From NCBI RefSeq assembly GCF_017348835.2, contig NZ_CP071375.1: a DNA stretch of 64,000 nucleotides; one strand, written 5' to 3'. A program made the position numbers. Positions 12,001 to 21,000 of the stretch are shown piece after piece. Each line of letters starts with the position of its first letter. Positions within the stretch are counted from its first letter, which is position 1. Source of the stretch: Escherichia coli. Lineage in GTDB: Bacteria > Pseudomonadota > Gammaproteobacteria > Enterobacterales > Enterobacteriaceae.

Positions 12001-15000
12001 TTTGCCTTCACCACGCTGGAAGTCACGGAATGAAAAAAGACCGTATTAGCTGATTTACGGAAAATATGTACTCCACAAGCGTCAATATCAGACGAGGCCT
12101 GGGAAAAGATAATGTTGTCTGATGAAAGTAATCAGCAGCACATCCGTGAGGCTATTGTGGCGATGGAACGCAATAACCAGAACAATTACTGGGAAGCGTT
12201 AGGCAAGGTTGAATGCCCGGATATGTAGACGTGAAGCCGCAGCTTCACGTCTACATTTAGCACTTAACGTGAACGTACATCGGGAATAATTAAATCACCG
12301 CGCAGAACATATGAACCCAGCATCGTCTGCGTCTTCTCGTTAAGCCAACTGACTATGCGGGCGGCCATTTCGTCCAGCGAATATTCTATCGCCGGAATGG
12401 TCGGTATCCCCGGAAGATGAACAGTACCCGCCAGACTAAATACCATAATGTCCTCAGGAACAGATTTATTAAACGCCTGCAATTGCGGTATCACCCGCTG
12501 CGCTTGCTGTTCATCAGCAACTAATAACGCATTAAAGTTCAGTGTTGAGGCGTTATTTAGCAGCTCCTGCAAAGCCACTGAGGAAGAGATTGCTTCCATA
12601 AAAACCAGATTACGGTTAAAGGGAAGAAAGTTTTTCTCCAGCGCGTGTTTATAGCCCAGTAAGACCTGGTCAGAAAATCCCATACCGTGTGGGTGGATGA
12701 GGGCGATTTGGCGTCTGTTCTGACTTATCAGATAGTTACAAGCGGTTTCAGTCGCGAATGTGTGATCGAACTGAATACTGTTAACATCATTACCCGTCTC
12801 AAGGCAGTCCACCAGTATCACGTTTTCCTGATGAATATTCAGTGGGAAACGCGCACCAATAATCAGTACGTCATCACACAAACCACAGCTCAGCTCATCA
12901 AGGGCGTTCTTTACCTCGGCTTTATTGCTGGCGAAGCGAAGAAGTAGATGTTTTTGATGCTGGCTGAGATGTTTTTCCAGAGCGTAAAGATAACCGGTGG
13001 TCTGATTAATGTTTTCCTGAGCACAAATTACACCGATACAGCCCGTAGATTGCGTCAGCAGTGACTGCGCAATGACATTGGGACGATAGTTTAGCTCTTC
13101 GACGGCTTTCAATACCGCGAGACGGCTGGCTTCTTTAACACCACGCGATCCGCTCAACACCCGAGAAACCGTCGCTTTTGAAACGCCAGCCAAACGCGAT
13201 ACATCATTGATAGTAGACATCATTCTCCCCTGACAGAGCGGCCCTGGCTCCCACAATCCTGAATTCCTGTTGGCTTAAATATTAGCCGTTCGCAGTATAA
13301 CTGTTTCCGTTTTCTAATGGAAACCGATTTTCCATGGCATCTCAAAACTGAGCTAATAATGATAAAAATGTGAACAGAATCGAAATAATAACGCGACTTT
13401 ATAGCGAAATCTGATAGCCGTTACAGTTTATGTTTCCATGAATGGAAACCGGTTTCCAAATGATATCAAATCAATTGCGAAATAGATTTTTACATTCAGA
13501 GGATGTGTCAGATGGTCAGGATTATGTTGTGTTGCTCTGCGGGGATGTCAACCAGTCTGCTGGTGAAAAAAATGGTTGAGGCCGCAGAAAGCAGAGAGCT
13601 ACCGGTAGAGATAGATGCCTACGGAGTTTCCGAATTTGATATTCAGTTTCCAAAATATCAGGTGGTGCTACTCGGACCGCAGGTAAAGTATATGTTAAAC
13701 ATGCTCGCAGAAAAGGCCGCCCCCCAGGGAATACCCGTAAAAGCCATTGATATGGCGGACTACGGAATGCAACGGGGTGACAAGGTGCTGGATTACGCTC
13801 TGTCGCTCATTGCAGCGACACATTAGAAAGGTGTCATTATGAGTTCGTTATATCAATCAATGGTAGCCGTTATTGAACAATCCATCACACCGCTTGCCGG
13901 GAAGCTGGGGCAGCAAAAATATGTGATTGCCATCCGGGACGGTTTTACTGCCGCTCTACCGTTTATGATCATCGGTTCGTTTATGCTGGTGTTCATTTTC
14001 CCACCGTTTTCGGCTGAAACAACCAACAGTTTTGCCCGAGGCTGGCTGGATTTCTCCGCCACCTACCGTGAACAGCTAATGTTGCCATTTAACCTCAGTA
14101 TGGGAGTGATGACTTTCTTCATCTCAGTAGGAATCGGTGCCAGCCTTGGGCGACAGTTTAATCTCGATCCGATTATGTCTGGCTTGCTGGCATTTATGGC
14201 ATTTTTACTGGTCGCAGCGCCTTACGCTGACGGCAAAATATCGACTCAATATCTTTCCGGGCAAGGTATTTTCACTTCGCTGATTACCGCGATTTATGCC
14301 ACTCGTGTATACGCCTGGTTAAAACAACACAACGTGACAATCCGCTTACCCAAAGAAGTCCCTACCGGGGTGGCGCGTTCCTTTGAGATCCTTATCCCGG
14401 TTCTGGTGGTCATTGCTACGCTACACCCACTGAATCTGTTTATTGAAGCCCAGACTGGAATGATTATTCCTGAGGCGATCATGCATCTTTTAGCGCCACT
14501 GGTCTCTGCCTCTGATTCTCTGCCTGCAATTCTGCTGTCTGTTCTGATGTGTCAGATTTTCTGGTTCGCAGGTATTCATGGTTCACTGATTGTAACAGGC
14601 ATCATGAATCCCTTCTGGATGGCAAACCTGTCGGCAAATCAGGCAGCTCTTGCCGCTGGCGCAGCACTTCCTCACGTTTATCTGCAAGGTTTTTGGGATC
14701 ACTACCTGCTGATTGGCGGCGTCGGCTCGACGCTACCGCTGGCGTTCTTGCTGTTACGCAGCCGTGTTGCTCACTTGCGTACCATCGGAAAAATGGGCGT
14801 TGTCCCCAGTTTTTTCAACATCAATGAGCCTATTCTGTTCGGTGCGCCGATCATCATGAATCCGATGTTGTTTATCCCGTTCGTTTTCGTGCCAATTATT
14901 AACGCCATCCTGGCCTATACCGCGACCAGACTGGGCTGGCTGGCACAGGTTGTCTCATTAACGCCATGGACCACACCTGCTCCAATTGGTGCCTCCTGGG

Positions 15001-18000: not shown

Positions 18001-21000
18001 CATTGCCCGCTACTCTGATAATTCCGATAACAGTGTTTACAATAAAACTGACGATCTCACGACCATTTACGCCAGTTTTGAAGGTAGTCATAAATTTACC
18101 CAGCAGGCGCAAATCGAGTATTTACTGGCCTTCCATGATTACGACAACAGTTCTATTAAGAGTGATAACCGCAAAAACTATGGCGTAATTGTCCGTCCTA
18201 TGTATTTCTGGAATGACGTTCACTCCACCTGGCTTGAGGCGGGTTATCAACGGGTTGATTACGATAAAGGTGGAGATAATTCCGGCTGGAAGCTGACGCT
18301 GTCACAGAACATTTCTATTGCGATGGGCCCGGAATTCCGCCCAATGCTACGTTTCTACATGACGGGCGGACAAGTTGATAATGACCGGACTGCACGCGTC
18401 AACGGTACAAAAGAGGAAACGCTTGACGACTTTAACCTTGGTGCGATGTGGGAAGCCTGGTTCTGACAGACCACTCACATTGAGTTAATGCAACCAAAAC
18501 ACGCCTTCTTCTGGCTGGAAGAGGGCGTTATAGCGCATTTGGAAGGCATTAATCTCCTGCCTATCTGGCTCTAACTCACGGAGAAAACCCAGCGCCTGAC
18601 GGACCTGGGCATCCGTGATCGGCGCAGCAAGACGCGCTTTTTGCAACAACCGATGCCAACGTAACAGGTTCTGCTCACTACCATCGACAATCACAATTTG
18701 CCAGATAAGTAACACCTGAGCAGCATTTTGCAGATGAGATTCATCCGGGCGATGCAAATAATACAAAAACTCTTTACCAGGCATTTTACCCATCTGATCG
18801 ATCATCGATTCTACGGGTACAACATCAATATTAAGTCGTTCGCTTAAACGGCGAATCGCCCGTCGGGTGCCTGACGTCAGAACCCGAAAACCAACCACAA
18901 ACACCACCACGACGGTGGCAAGCATTATCCAGATCATGCGTTCTCCTGCGCATCAACTTTTGATGATATCTGGAAAACTCCCCCTGCCGTTAATCTGGTC
19001 AAATTGAATAAAAAAAGCCCGGCGTCATGCCGGGCAAAAGTCACCAGTTACGTTTATGCCACTGTCAACTGCTGAATTTTTTTCTCGCGGCGGATTTTGC
19101 GTTCTTCCATCACCGCCACTATCGCCATCAGGCAGATACAACCAATCGCGGCGATATCAAGTGCGGCGAAGGTGCCTGCCCAGCCGGTAAGGCCGAATAC
19201 CGGCGTCCCATCGGCAATCATTCCCAGACCTAACTTGGCAAAGCTGTCGCCAATCAGGTAAGCAAAGGTGCCTTTAATACCATCGGCAGCACCAATCGCT
19301 TTTTTAGGTACAAAACCAACAGCAGCCACACCAATCAACAATTGCGGGCCAAAGACCAGGAAACCCAACGCAAAGAGAGAAGCCAGATAGATATATTCGT
19401 TGCTGGCATGTTGATACACACCGAGCGTGGCGATAATCAGCGCCAGCGCGATGCAGGCCACCAGGCCACGGCGACCGTTCGCCAGGTCAGAGAGCCAGCC
19501 CCACAGCAACGTACCGACCAGCGCACCAGCTTCAAACAGCGTAAAGCCCTGAATCGCCACCGCTTTAGAGAGTTTCAGTTCCTGGAACGCGTATACGGTT
19601 GACCACTGGTCGATACCAATACGTACCACATAGAGGAAAATGTTGGCGAAGCACAGCAGCCAGATCACTTTGTTTTTCAGCACATACTCAACAAAGATCT
19701 GCCACTTGGTCATATCGGTAGATTCTGTCTCTTTGTCCTCTTCGCTGATCTCCTCGCCGAACAGTTCTTCAGCTTTGCCGAGGCCATAAGATTCCGGGGA
19801 GTCGCTGCCGTAACGCAGGCCGATAAAACCGACAATCAGCGCGATAATCGACGGGAAGATAAACATGCCGATGACATGGCCATCGAACAGGTAATTTGCG
19901 CCGAACAGCGCCACACCTGCTGCGCCTGCACCGCCAAGGTTGTGAGAAATGTTCCAGAAACCGAGGAAGGTCCCGCGCTTACGACGCGGCGTCCATTTGG
20001 TGATGGTGGAGTAACTGCACGAACCGCCGGTGCTCTGGAAAAAGCCGCTTAAGGCGTAGAAGGCAATCATCAGGAACAGGCTAACCGAGCCGCTGCCCAT
20101 ACTGGCGCTGAAGCCCAGCATACAAATGGCAGACAGGATAAGCATGAACGGCAGGAATTGTTTGGTGTTTTTGCCGTCAGCGTAGTAGGAAACCAGCGTT
20201 TTACCCACGCCATAAGTGATGGAGAAGCCCAGGCCGATCATCCCCAGCTGCGTCATGCTCAACCCGTAGGTCGAAATCATATCGTTCTGCGCGATGTTAA
20301 AGTTCTTGCGAATCAGGTACATCGTCAGGTAGCCGATAAAGACCACCAGGTAGGATTGCATGAACGGTTTGAACCACATTTTGCGCCGCACTTCGAGCGG
20401 AAGGTCCAGGGTCGGCTTGCGAACCTGGTTTAGGAAAGCCAGCATGGGTTACTCCTGAAATGAATACCTGCGTGAGGCATGCATTGTAAAAATCAGCAGC
20501 AAATCAGGCCTGAAATAGCGTCCAGGCAAAACCTGGAAAATTTCTTAGTTTTGCCGGATATGAAGTGAAAAGGTGAGATGCATCACGCTTCGCGCGGTGC
20601 CTGGGCGTTCAAAAAGGGCAGTAACAGCAGTGCGGAAATCCCGGCGGCGATAGAGATAACCACAAAAAATCCGCACCAGTGCCAGGTATCGAGTACTTTC
20701 GCCAGTGGCCAACCAGCAAGCGACGCCCCCAGATAAGCAAACAAGCCGACAAACCCCGTCGCCGCCCCTGCCGCCTCTTTGTGGGAACACTCTGCCGCCG
20801 CCATGCCGATTAACATCTGCGGGCCAAAGACAAAAAAACCAATGGTGAAGAAGCAGGTTGCCTGCATCACGTAGCTGGCAAATGGCATCAGCCACAGCGA
20901 GCCGACTGAAAGCAAAATTCCGGCGGCGAAAATCAAATTCATCGGCCCACGGTTGCCGTTAAACAATTTGTCCGAGCCCCAACCGGCTACCAGCGCACCG

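What the first reader, a model, noticed from the sequence alone, without database searches (positions are those of the whole stretch)
12034..18990. Accessory PTS beta-glucoside utilisation island (regulator, IIB-IIC-GH1-IIA, porin) inserted between ade and uhpT
Between ade and uhpT, which are adjacent and convergent in K-12 as I recall, lie a LacI-family regulator, a Lac/cellobiose-family PTS IIB, IIC and IIA, a GH1 phospho-beta-glucosidase and a LamB/ScrY-type porin with an N-terminal coiled-coil extension. The operon shows tight translational coupling: the IIC stop and the GH1 ORF-track start overlap at 15170, and the GH1 stop overlaps the IIA start as ATGA. This is a complete uptake-to-hydrolysis module, including outer-membrane passage, for an unidentified beta-glucoside.
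Basis: partly seen in the sequence, partly recalled or inferred. Interest (0 to 1): 0.5.

Follow-up and report, generated by a model that had tools for sequence, protein, structure and literature searches.

The report
Rare sugar-uptake island in E. coli
This is a real but ordinary 7-kb accessory gene island, found in about 0.5% of complete E. coli genomes, that encodes a full route (outer-membrane pore, phosphorylating transporter, splitting enzyme, repressor) for a plant-derived beta-linked disaccharide; the exact sugar (cellobiose-type or mannan-derived) is still unknown.

Summary
A 6.97-kb insert (about 12036-19006) lies between adeD and uhpT, which are 45 bp apart in K-12-type strains. It encodes a LacI-family regulator, Lac/cellobiose-family PTS IIB, IIC and IIA, a GH1 enzyme and a LamB-family porin.

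Only 25 of 5,426 complete E. coli genomes carry it. The same regulator|IIB-IIC-GH1-IIA-porin cluster is native to many Enterobacterales, where it sits between yicS and yicN. The E. coli copy looks like a transplanted piece of that locus, with no integrase, tRNA or IS. The donor is unsampled: identity to Citrobacter is about 80% nt.

The GH1 has both catalytic Glu residues and the phosphate-binding motif of S. pyogenes SPy1599, a 6-phospho-beta-glucosidase (49.7% identity). The island is not bgc, chb, asc or bgl.

A perfect palindrome, TGGAAACCGGTTTCCA, is conserved across genera as the likely operator.

The substrate is unresolved. An earlier in-silico regulon study predicts cellobiose-6P for the nearest regulator group it catalogued. 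In Aeromonas and Photobacterium, however, the orthologous module sits inside beta-mannan loci.

Verdict: an uncharacterised new member of a known kind, of low to moderate interest.

The parts
12036..19006 (.). Inserted segment (island) between the adeD stop and the uhpT terminator
   Evidence: Megablast to 5,400+ E. coli genomes loses homology at ~12038 and regains it at 19007. K-12-type junction is GGAAT|AATAAAAAAAGCCC. Window junctions are GGAAT-GAAAAAAGACC and AAATTG-AATAAAAAAAGCCC.
12034..12228 (+). yicS' pseudogene: 64 C-terminal codons, signal-peptide half missing, fused directly to the adeD stop (which is TGA here, TAA in K-12)
   Evidence: RefSeq annotates it 'YicS family protein, missing N-terminus'. 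It is 70-83% identical to the yicS that precedes the cluster in Citrobacter. The alignment shows truncation at microhomology CACG(G)AA..AAAAAA.
12224..12255 (.). Perfect 14-bp hairpin TGTAGACGTGAAGC-CGCA-GCTTCACGTCTACA between yicS' and the regulator's 3' end; likely bidirectional terminator
   Evidence: Read directly from the sequence. Function is inferred.
12264..13220 (-). LacI-family repressor gene (318 aa), divergent from the operon
   Evidence: NCBIfam LacI-family hits, none reaching an equivalog cutoff. RefSeq annotation. 39% identical to the in-silico 'CelR3' regulator of Photobacterium profundum and 28-30% to the CelR/CelR2 groups.
13318..13334 (.). Candidate operator O2 (TGGAAACCGATTTTCCA), overlapping the -35 of the regulator's own predicted promoter (TTTCCA-18-TATACT, minus strand)
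   Evidence: Pattern search; conserved at about -195 in most of 70 loci; promoter scan. Binding is inferred.
13369..13384 (.). Possible CRP site TGTGAacagaaTCGAA between the two operators
   Evidence: TGTGA is invariant across 64 distinct intergenic sequences. Assignment to CRP is by resemblance to the consensus only.
13443..13458 (.). Candidate operator O1: perfect 16-bp palindrome TGGAAACCGGTTTCCA, 54 nt upstream of the IIB ATG, just upstream of a conserved TGaTATCAA (possible extended -10)
   Evidence: Unique perfect match in the 64-kb window; 0.27 matches with up to 3 mismatches expected by chance. Present with 0-2 mismatches at about -70 in nearly all orthologous loci, from Citrobacter to Yersinia and Pantoea.
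13512..13826 (+). PTS EIIB, Lac/cellobiose family (104 aa); active-site Cys8 in CSAGMSTS
   Evidence: TIGR00853 92.6 bits; RefSeq start; motif read from the sequence.
13839..15170 (+). PTS EIIC, Lac/cellobiose family (443 aa)
   Evidence: TIGR00410 367 bits, above its cutoff of 236. ChbC equivalog model only 199 bits against a cutoff of 760.
15191..16588 (+). GH1 6-phospho-beta-glycosidase (465 aa): E166 acid/base, E364 nucleophile, phosphate-site motif S420-WLNAYKNRY-G430
   Evidence: Pfam PF00232 444 bits. Best solved relative is SPy1599 (4b3k/5foo), E 1e-150, 49.7% identity, with an identical SWLNAYKNRYG segment. SD AAGGAG at 15177-15182.
16585..16887 (+). PTS EIIA, Lac/cellobiose family (100 aa); His76/His80 in VHAQDH; start overlaps the GH1 stop (ATGA)
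   Evidence: TIGR00823 120.6 bits; sequence.
17087..18466 (+). LamB-family carbohydrate porin (459 aa) with signal peptide, conserved N-terminal helix (about residues 29-56), linker, and an 18-strand barrel
   Evidence: Pfam LamB 249 bits over residues 82-459. Distant LamB structures at E 1e-13. AF2 model: 18 strands, mean pLDDT 60. The extension QEFTQEQIDAIVAKAVDKALAERQ is nearly invariant across genera.
18485..18937 (-). DUF1198 gene (150 aa), a second yicN-like copy brought in with the island
   Evidence: RefSeq annotation. 87% identical to the resident yicN at 8256-8705 and 85-89% to Citrobacter yicN.

Best explanation
The island is a horizontally acquired, self-contained catabolic module for a beta-1,4-linked hexose di- or oligosaccharide from plant cell walls. 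My committed guess is cellobiose/cellodextrins, probably extending to glucosyl-mannose from glucomannan.

Proposed mechanism, all steps inferred from family knowledge:
1. The LamB-family porin admits the oligosaccharide into the periplasm.
2. The Lac-family PTS carries it across the inner membrane and phosphorylates the 6-OH of the non-reducing sugar. The phosphate relay is EI/HPr to IIA His76, then IIB Cys8, then IIC.
3. The cytoplasmic GH1 cleaves the 6'-phospho-disaccharide into hexose-6-P plus a free hexose. Housekeeping enzymes (Glk; ManA/Mak if mannose) take these into glycolysis.
4. Without substrate, the LacI-family repressor binds the palindrome O1 at the operon promoter and O2 at its own promoter. 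The phosphorylated disaccharide is the likely inducer.

Origin: a segment yicS'-cluster-yicN' from an unsampled enterobacterial relative, in which the cluster lies between yicS and yicN next to uhpT. It was joined to the adeD stop and to the A-run of the uhpT terminator by short-homology recombination.
For: Gene content and order.

GH1 is a phospho-type enzyme. Both catalytic Glu residues are present, and the SWLNAYKNRYG segment is identical to that of SPy1599. SPy1599 is cited as a 6-phospho-beta-glucosidase in PMC10360150.

IIC passes the Lac/cellobiose subfamily cutoff.

The whole cluster is conserved in more than 70 Enterobacterales species representatives with the same order and divergent regulator. 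O1 and O2 are conserved in position and sequence across genera.

All genes are annotated as intact in strain PE164, and the core operon is 98.1-100% identical across the 25 E. coli carriers.

Origin: yicS precedes the cluster and DUF1198/uhpT follow it in Citrobacter, Enterobacter, Leclercia and Lelliottia. Flanks are ordinary E. coli at 94.5-100% identity. No tRNA or Rfam match in or around the island, and no integrase or IS is annotated in it.

Cellobiose lead: the regulator is closest (39%) to the 'CelR3' group, predicted in silico to respond to cellobiose-6-P (PMC4052901 supplement).
Against: No experiment on this cluster, or on any orthologue at 70% identity or more, was found in the papers I could search.

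The orthologous IIB-IIC-GH1-IIA module is 61-75% identical in Aeromonas caviae. In Photobacterium sagamiensis the GH1, IIB and IIA are 71%, 62% and 62% identical, but the neighbouring IIC is only 32%. In both, the module is embedded in loci with GH5/CBM35 mannanase, ManA and a ROK kinase.

A mannan locus on an E. coli mobile element has PTS proteins 59-71% identical to those here.

Several public annotations name orthologues 'GmuD'.

All NCBIfam equivalog cutoffs are missed.

The CelR3 assignment is itself only a genome-context prediction.
Confidence: 0.5

Rival explanations
1. Same architecture and mechanism, but the physiological substrates are beta-1,4-manno-oligosaccharides (mannobiose, mannotriose) scavenged from mannan or galactomannan broken down by other organisms. 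The GH1 would act as a 6-phospho-beta-mannosidase, and host ManA plus a hexokinase would finish the pathway.
For: Aeromonas caviae: IIB 72%, IIC 73%, GH1 72% and IIA 61% identical, in the same order, flanked by ManA, a ROK kinase, a LamB porin and a GH5-CBM35 mannanase.

Photobacterium sagamiensis: GH1 71% identical, with ManA, two ROK kinases and a GH5 mannosidase-family gene nearby.

The E. coli LR-06 mobile-element mannan locus has IIB/IIC/IIA 64/71/59% identical and a regulator 40% identical. Its 731-residue, CBM35-annotated neighbour appears to correspond to Man1E of Enterobacter aerogenes, a 731-aa CBM-bearing enzyme with experimentally shown mannanase activity. That match rests on length and domain content only (PMC7362650).
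Against: The island and its more than 70 Enterobacterales orthologous loci carry no mannanase or ROK kinase next to the cluster. A ManA homologue was seen in only two of those loci, and in the one examined (L063) it belongs to an unrelated neighbouring cluster.

The GH1 of the enterobacterial mannan locus is a different lineage, only 53% identical.

The closest solved enzyme is a 6-phospho-beta-glucosidase.

Glucomannan also yields glucosyl-terminated disaccharides, so a mannan context does not require a mannosidase.
Confidence: 0.3
2. The module is for aryl beta-glucosides (arbutin, salicin, esculin) or another beta-glucoside such as gentiobiose, as the first reader left open. That would make it functionally parallel to bgl, asc and bgc.
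For: GH1 phospho-beta-glucosidases commonly accept aryl aglycones. The E. coli bgc system, also a Lac-family PTS + porin + GH1, is reported to use cellobiose, arbutin and salicin (PMC3585215, citing Neelakanta 2009).
Against: The proteins are only 30-44% identical to Bgc. They score far below the cutoffs of the BglA/BglB/AscB-type models. No context gene points to aryl glucosides. A LamB-type porin suggests oligosaccharides.
Confidence: 0.12
3. In E. coli the island is a silent or cryptic passenger (like bgl) that gives no phenotype under natural conditions and is on its way to loss.
For: It is very rare: 25 of 5,426 genomes. Strain CUWW06 retains only the porin 3' end plus DUF1198 (H15). Salmonella and several Citrobacter keep only an orphan GH1 next to yicS. 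The regulatory regions are AT-rich.
Against: In PE164 every island gene except the yicS' fragment is annotated as intact. The operators and Shine-Dalgarno sequences are intact. The core operon diverges by only 0-1.9% among the 25 carriers.
Confidence: 0.08

Closest known systems
Orthologous LacI|IIB-IIC-GH1-IIA-porin cluster at the yicS-yicN locus of Citrobacter, Enterobacter, Kosakonia, Leclercia, Yersinia, Pantoea and others (annotated, uncharacterised)
   Same: Identical gene order, divergent regulator, and the same two operators. Protein identities to Citrobacter: regulator 93%, IIB 84-88%, IIC 95-96%, GH1 90-91% in loci with the full cluster (up to 93% for orphan GH1 copies), IIA 93%, porin 89-91%.
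   Different: In E. coli it lies at a secondary site (adeD-uhpT) with a truncated yicS and a duplicate yicN. Nucleotide identity to the sampled Citrobacter is only about 80%, so none of them is the donor.
E. coli bgc operon (bgcR, bgcE/F/I, bgcH, bgcA; marB-eamA locus of CFT073)
   Same: Accessory E. coli island with a Lac-family PTS, a dedicated porin and a GH1 phospho-beta-glucosidase. Reported to use cellobiose, arbutin and salicin.
   Different: GntR-type activator instead of a LacI repressor. Gene order is IIB-IIC-IIA-porin-GH1. Identities are IIB 43%, IIC 30%, IIA 44% and GH1 30%, and the porins are not detectably similar. Different chromosomal site.
Streptococcus pyogenes SPy1599 (PDB 4b3k, 5foo), GH1 6-phospho-beta-glucosidase
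   Same: Best solved relative of the GH1: full-length match, 49.7% identity, same catalytic and phosphate-binding motifs.
   Different: Gram-positive enzyme with a different operon context. The natural substrate of neither enzyme is defined here.
gmu-type (gluco)mannan utilisation loci: B. subtilis gmuBACDREFG, and the proteobacterial versions seen here in Aeromonas, Photobacterium and an E. coli LR-06 mobile element
   Same: Lac-family PTS plus a GH1 phospho-glycosidase under a local repressor. Module proteins are 59-75% identical to the island's.
   Different: Those loci add mannanase, ManA, a ROK kinase and a second IIC. None of these was found anywhere in the 64-kb window. Their porins are only about 25% identical to the island's.
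E. coli K-12 chb, asc and bgl systems
   Same: PTS-dependent uptake plus phospho-glycosidase for beta-linked sugars. chb also uses the Lac family, and bgl includes the LamB-family porin BglH (established knowledge).
   Different: NCBIfam scores against cutoffs: ChbC 199/760, ChbB 69/157, ChbA 117/148, BglA/BglB/AscB-type models 196-230/623-686. chb uses a GH4 enzyme, and asc and bgl use Glc-family EII (established knowledge).

Membership tests
PTS Lac/cellobiose family (TC 4.A.3) | Separate IIB, IIC and IIA proteins matching the family models | tested here: met
   IIC scores 367 bits on TIGR00410 against a cutoff of 236. IIB (TIGR00853, 92.6 bits) and IIA (TIGR00823, 120.6 bits) are clear matches just under their cutoffs. 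RefSeq names agree.
PTS Lac/cellobiose family (TC 4.A.3) | Phosphorylation-site residues: IIB Cys, IIA His | tested here: met
   Cys8 in CSAGMSTS, and His76/His80 in VHAQDH. The assignment is by motif comparison with ChbB and IIA-Lac, recalled from established knowledge.
GH1 6-phospho-beta-glycosidase | GH1 fold with NEP acid/base and ENG nucleophile glutamates | tested here: met
   PF00232 444 bits; E166 and E364.
GH1 6-phospho-beta-glycosidase | Phosphate-binding Ser/Lys/Tyr segment in place of the DNFEW glutamate of non-phospho enzymes | tested here: met
   IDNWSWLNAYKNRYG; the 11-residue core is identical to that of SPy1599.
GH1 6-phospho-beta-glycosidase | Measured hydrolysis of a 6-phospho-beta-glycoside, and its sugar specificity | not testable with these tools
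   Needs enzymology.
LamB/sugar-porin family | LamB domain forming an 18-strand barrel | tested here: met
   PF02264 249 bits over residues 82-459. AF2 predicts 18 strands, at low confidence (mean pLDDT 60).
ScrY-type porin with N-terminal coiled coil | Recognisable ScrY-like periplasmic N-terminal extension domain / trimeric coiled coil | tested here: inconclusive
   No Pfam family other than LamB matched significantly. No ScrY chain appeared among the solved-structure hits at E<=1e-3. A single conserved helix, residues 29-56, is predicted. Oligomeric state was not tested.
E. coli bgc operon | GntR-type regulator BgcR and orthologous Bgc proteins | tested here: not met
   The regulator is LacI-family, and proteins are 30-44% identical to the CFT073 bgc products.
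gmu-type mannan utilisation locus | Co-located mannanase, mannose-6-P isomerase and hexokinase | tested here: not met
   tblastn of the Aeromonas and LR-06 ManA, ROK and mannanase proteins found nothing in the 64-kb window.
Integrative genomic island / mobile element | Integrase, tRNA target, IS or long flanking repeats | tested here: not met
   No tRNA, and no integrase or IS among the annotated genes. Only about 12 bp of imperfect A-rich microhomology at the junctions.
LacI/GalR repressor family | N-terminal HTH plus periplasmic-binding-protein-like core, and a palindromic operator with central CG | tested here: met
   Multiple LacI-family model hits over residues 13-310. Perfect palindrome TGGAAACCGGTTTCCA, conserved across genera. 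Binding itself was not tested.

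The most novel reading that the evidence does not exclude
The regulator|IIB-IIC-GH1-IIA-porin module, widespread in Enterobacterales, is a dedicated pathway for beta-manno- or glucomanno-oligosaccharides, and its GH1 acts on 6'-phospho-mannobiose or glucosyl-mannose. That would make it the first defined PTS route for mannan fragments in Proteobacteria. It would also mean that rare E. coli lineages, mostly from animals, plants and water, carry a hemicellulose-scavenging trait that has been annotated only generically.
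Probability: 0.3. Interest if true: 0.45.

Novelty: new member of a known kind. Interest (0 to 1): 0.25.

Why it matters
- It defines a rare, intact carbohydrate trait in E. coli: 0.46% of complete genomes, many from pigs, cattle, baboons, poultry, produce and water. This could explain atypical fermentation phenotypes or niche adaptation.
- It gives a clean example of gene gain without mobile-element machinery. A piece of the orthologous yicS-yicN locus of a relative was pasted 4 kb away from its homologous position.
- The same module is present in dozens of enterobacterial genera, and I found no experimental characterisation of it. One set of growth and enzyme assays would annotate a large gene family and settle the cellobiose-versus-mannan question.
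- None of this challenges current understanding of PTS sugar catabolism.

Tried and rejected
1. **bgc identity.** I located the CFT073 bgc locus and compared proteins; identity is 30-44%, so this was rejected.
2. **chb/asc/bgl orthology.** Rejected on NCBIfam scores far below the cutoffs.
3. **Non-phospho beta-glucosidase.** The top NCBIfam model is TIGR03356 BGL, but the enzyme has the phospho-type motif shared with SPy1599, so this was rejected.
4. **Mobile-element origin.** No tRNA, Rfam hit, integrase or IS.
5. **Recent transfer from Citrobacter.** Rejected, because nucleotide identity is only 76-80%.
6. **Co-transfer of flanking adeD/uhpT DNA.** Rejected, because the flanks are 94.5-100% identical to a K-12-type strain right up to the junctions.
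7. **Mannanase, ManA or kinase genes next to the cluster in other Enterobacterales.** The gaps after the porin hold only a DMT transporter and nepI. The ManA upstream in Cedecea belongs to an unrelated cluster.
8. **Literature.** The Neelakanta 2009 (bgc) and Adin 2008 (V. fischeri cel) papers are not held. Searches for bglEFIA, SPy1599/GmuD and mannobiose-PTS found no study of this cluster. The V. fischeri/V. salmonicida regulator group (CelR2) is only 29% identical to this regulator, so I did not equate that cluster with this one.
9. **AF2 of the porin.** This gave only a low-confidence model, so I ran no fold search on it.

Full report
**What is there**

The window is E. coli chromosome, 100% identical to pig strains PE164 and F2_81. 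Between the adeD stop (12031-12033) and the uhpT terminator lie the following features:
- a 5'-truncated yicS pseudogene, 12034-12228
- a hairpin, 12224-12255
- a LacI-family regulator, 12264-13220 (-)
- PTS IIB, 13512-13826
- PTS IIC, 13839-15170
- a GH1 enzyme, 15191-16588
- PTS IIA, 16585-16887
- a LamB-family porin, 17087-18466
- a DUF1198 gene, 18485-18937 (-)

In K-12-type strains adeD and uhpT are convergent and 45 bp apart. Homology of the window to more than 5,400 E. coli genomes ends at about 12038 and resumes at 19007.

Three details need adjusting:
- The GH1 most likely starts at 15191, behind a perfect AAGGAG. The ORF-track ATG at 15170 that touches the IIC stop is probably not used.
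- The GH1/IIA ATGA overlap is real.

**Frequency and origin**

Only 25 of 5,426 complete E. coli genomes carry the operon. The copies are 98.1-100% identical, and many come from animals, produce and water.

A scan of one genome per bacterial species found the same cluster in more than 70 Enterobacterales. It has the same gene order and the same divergent regulator. The taxa include Citrobacter, Kosakonia, Enterobacter, Phytobacter, Leclercia, Lelliottia, Pantoea, Erwinia, Serratia, Hafnia, Yersinia, Atlantibacter, Pseudescherichia and Mangrovibacter.

In Citrobacter, Enterobacter, Leclercia and Lelliottia the cluster lies between yicS and yicN (DUF1198). In several Citrobacter, uhpT follows yicN almost directly. 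Salmonella and some Citrobacter retain only yicS plus an orphan GH1. The spacer after the porin in other genera holds only a DMT transporter and nepI.

The E. coli island therefore looks like a yicS'-cluster-yicN' segment of such a locus, placed about 4 kb from E. coli's own nepI-yicN. The junction reads GGAAT|GAAAAAAGACC ... AAATTG|AATAAAAAAAGCCC. No recipient bases were lost, and the adeD stop changed from TAA to TGA. There is microhomology to the donor yicS sequence CACGAAAAAAA.

There is no integrase, IS, tRNA or Rfam element. The flanks are ordinary E. coli up to the junctions. Nucleotide identity to the best Citrobacter loci is only about 80%, so the donor lineage is not among the sampled species.

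**What the proteins are**

- IIC passes the Lac/cellobiose subfamily cutoff. IIB and IIA are clear family members with the expected Cys8 and His76.
- The GH1 (PF00232, 444 bits) has E166 (NEP) and E364 (ENG).
- Its closest solved relative is S. pyogenes SPy1599 (49.7% identity), a 6-phospho-beta-glucosidase. The two share the identical SWLNAYKNRYG phosphate-site segment. The GH1 is thus a phospho-glycosidase, as expected downstream of a PTS.
- The porin has a LamB domain (residues 82-459) and a predicted 18-strand barrel. It also has a roughly 58-residue N-terminal extension whose helix (QEFTQEQIDAIVAKAVDKALAERQ) is almost invariant across genera. No Pfam family other than LamB matched significantly, and the AF2 model is of low confidence. 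'Coiled coil' therefore remains a hypothesis.

**Regulation**

The 291-bp divergent intergenic region contains a perfect palindrome, TGGAAACCGGTTTCCA (13443-13458). It also contains an imperfect copy (13318-13334) that overlaps the predicted -35 of the regulator's own promoter. Both are conserved in position and sequence in nearly all orthologous loci. So are a TGTGA (possible CRP half-site) and a TGaTATCAA element just downstream of O1.

The inferred logic is LacI-type repression with autoregulation, relieved by the (phospho)sugar. Binding has not been tested.

**Relation to known systems**

It is not the E. coli bgc operon. I found that operon in CFT073 between marB and eamA. It has a GntR regulator and a different gene order, and its proteins are 30-44% identical. 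It is not chb, asc or bgl either.

A published in-silico catalogue of LacI regulons contains a 'CelR3' group (Photobacterium profundum). That group is 39% identical to this regulator and is predicted to sense cellobiose-6-P. The other CelR groups and the V. salmonicida CelR2 are 28-30% identical.

**The substrate question**

The cellobiose label is only a context prediction, and I found a serious rival.

- In Aeromonas caviae the orthologous IIB-IIC-GH1-IIA module (72/73/72/61% identity) is flanked by ManA, a ROK kinase, a LamB porin and a GH5-CBM35 mannanase.
- In Photobacterium sagamiensis a 71%-identical GH1 sits with ManA, ROK kinases and a GH5 mannosidase-family gene.
- A mobile-element locus in E. 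coli LR-06/F247 carries a full mannan kit. Its PTS proteins are 64/71/59% identical to the island's, but its GH1 is only 53% identical. Its 731-residue, CBM35-annotated protein appears to correspond to Man1E of Enterobacter aerogenes, a 731-aa CBM-bearing enzyme with experimentally shown mannanase activity. That match rests on length and domains only.

On the other side, the island and its enterobacterial orthologues lack any neighbouring mannanase or kinase. A ManA homologue appeared in only two of those loci, and in the one examined it lies in an unrelated cluster. The nearest solved enzyme is a glucosidase.

I therefore commit to beta-1,4 glucosyl-terminated di- or oligosaccharides (cellobiose/cellodextrins, possibly glucosyl-mannose) at about 0.5. 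Manno-oligosaccharides get about 0.3, and aryl or other beta-glucosides about 0.1.

A dedicated LamB-type porin suggests oligomers rather than only disaccharides. A porin 80% identical is found next to a GH43/MFS/xylA cluster in other E. coli. This porin subfamily may therefore be a general channel for plant beta-1,4 oligosaccharides.

**Verdict**

This is a genuine, intact, rare accessory catabolic island of a well-known type. It is already annotated generically in RefSeq, and I found no experimental characterisation of it. Nothing in its anatomy departs from established PTS, GH1, porin and LacI logic.

The modestly interesting points are its machinery-free transplantation from the homologous locus of a relative, and the open cellobiose-versus-mannan specificity of a module that is widespread in Enterobacterales.

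Noticed in passing
L004 (E. coli LH50-c, NZ_CP100500.1 921-928 kb): A second-site copy of the island. A 3' fragment of adeD, then yicS' and the whole operon, lie inside a tRNA-Leu-type island right after xylA. The porin is only 86% identical to the window's over its length. This suggests the E. coli island was moved there by recombination between its porin and the 80%-identical porin resident next to xylA (compare L003, strain H8).
   Followed up: partly
L092/L005/L006 (E. coli LR-06, F247 and others; about 1.10 Mb in LR-06): A mobilisable element (relaxase, ParB, recombinase) carries a complete gmu-like beta-mannan locus: LacI, ROK, IIA, IIC, IIB | IIC2, maltoporin, 731-aa CBM35-annotated protein (putative mannanase), GH1, ManA. 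It is present in only a handful of complete E. coli genomes.
   Followed up: partly
window 7471-8137: A RelE/ParE toxin gene and an HTH antitoxin gene sit between nepI and yicN. They are absent from the K-12-type strain (L002), but Salmonella has the same pair at the equivalent position (L087).
   Followed up: no
L087 (Salmonella enterica) and L009-L011, L014, L015, L032 (Citrobacter): An orphan GH1 gene (88-93% identical to the island's) remains next to yicS without the PTS, regulator or porin. This looks like a remnant of the ancestral cluster. The representative Salmonella protein cluster has 2,095 member sequences.
   Followed up: partly
hit H15 (E. coli CUWW06, NZ_CP182139.1 37.2-38.6 kb): This strain has only the last ~890 bp of the porin gene plus the DUF1198 gene at the adeD-uhpT site. 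It appears to be a deletion remnant of the island.
   Followed up: no
window 1-6000: The window begins inside a large inverse-autotransporter adhesin gene (iatC) upstream of nepI. Only two complete genomes match the first 1.8 kb at high coverage, so this end of the adhesin gene is strain-variable.
   Followed up: no
L003 (E. coli H8, tRNA-Leu island): A carbohydrate porin 80% identical to the island's porin sits beside xylA, an MFS transporter and a GH43 enzyme. The same porin subfamily is thus paired with a probable xyloside or xylo-oligosaccharide cluster.
   Followed up: no
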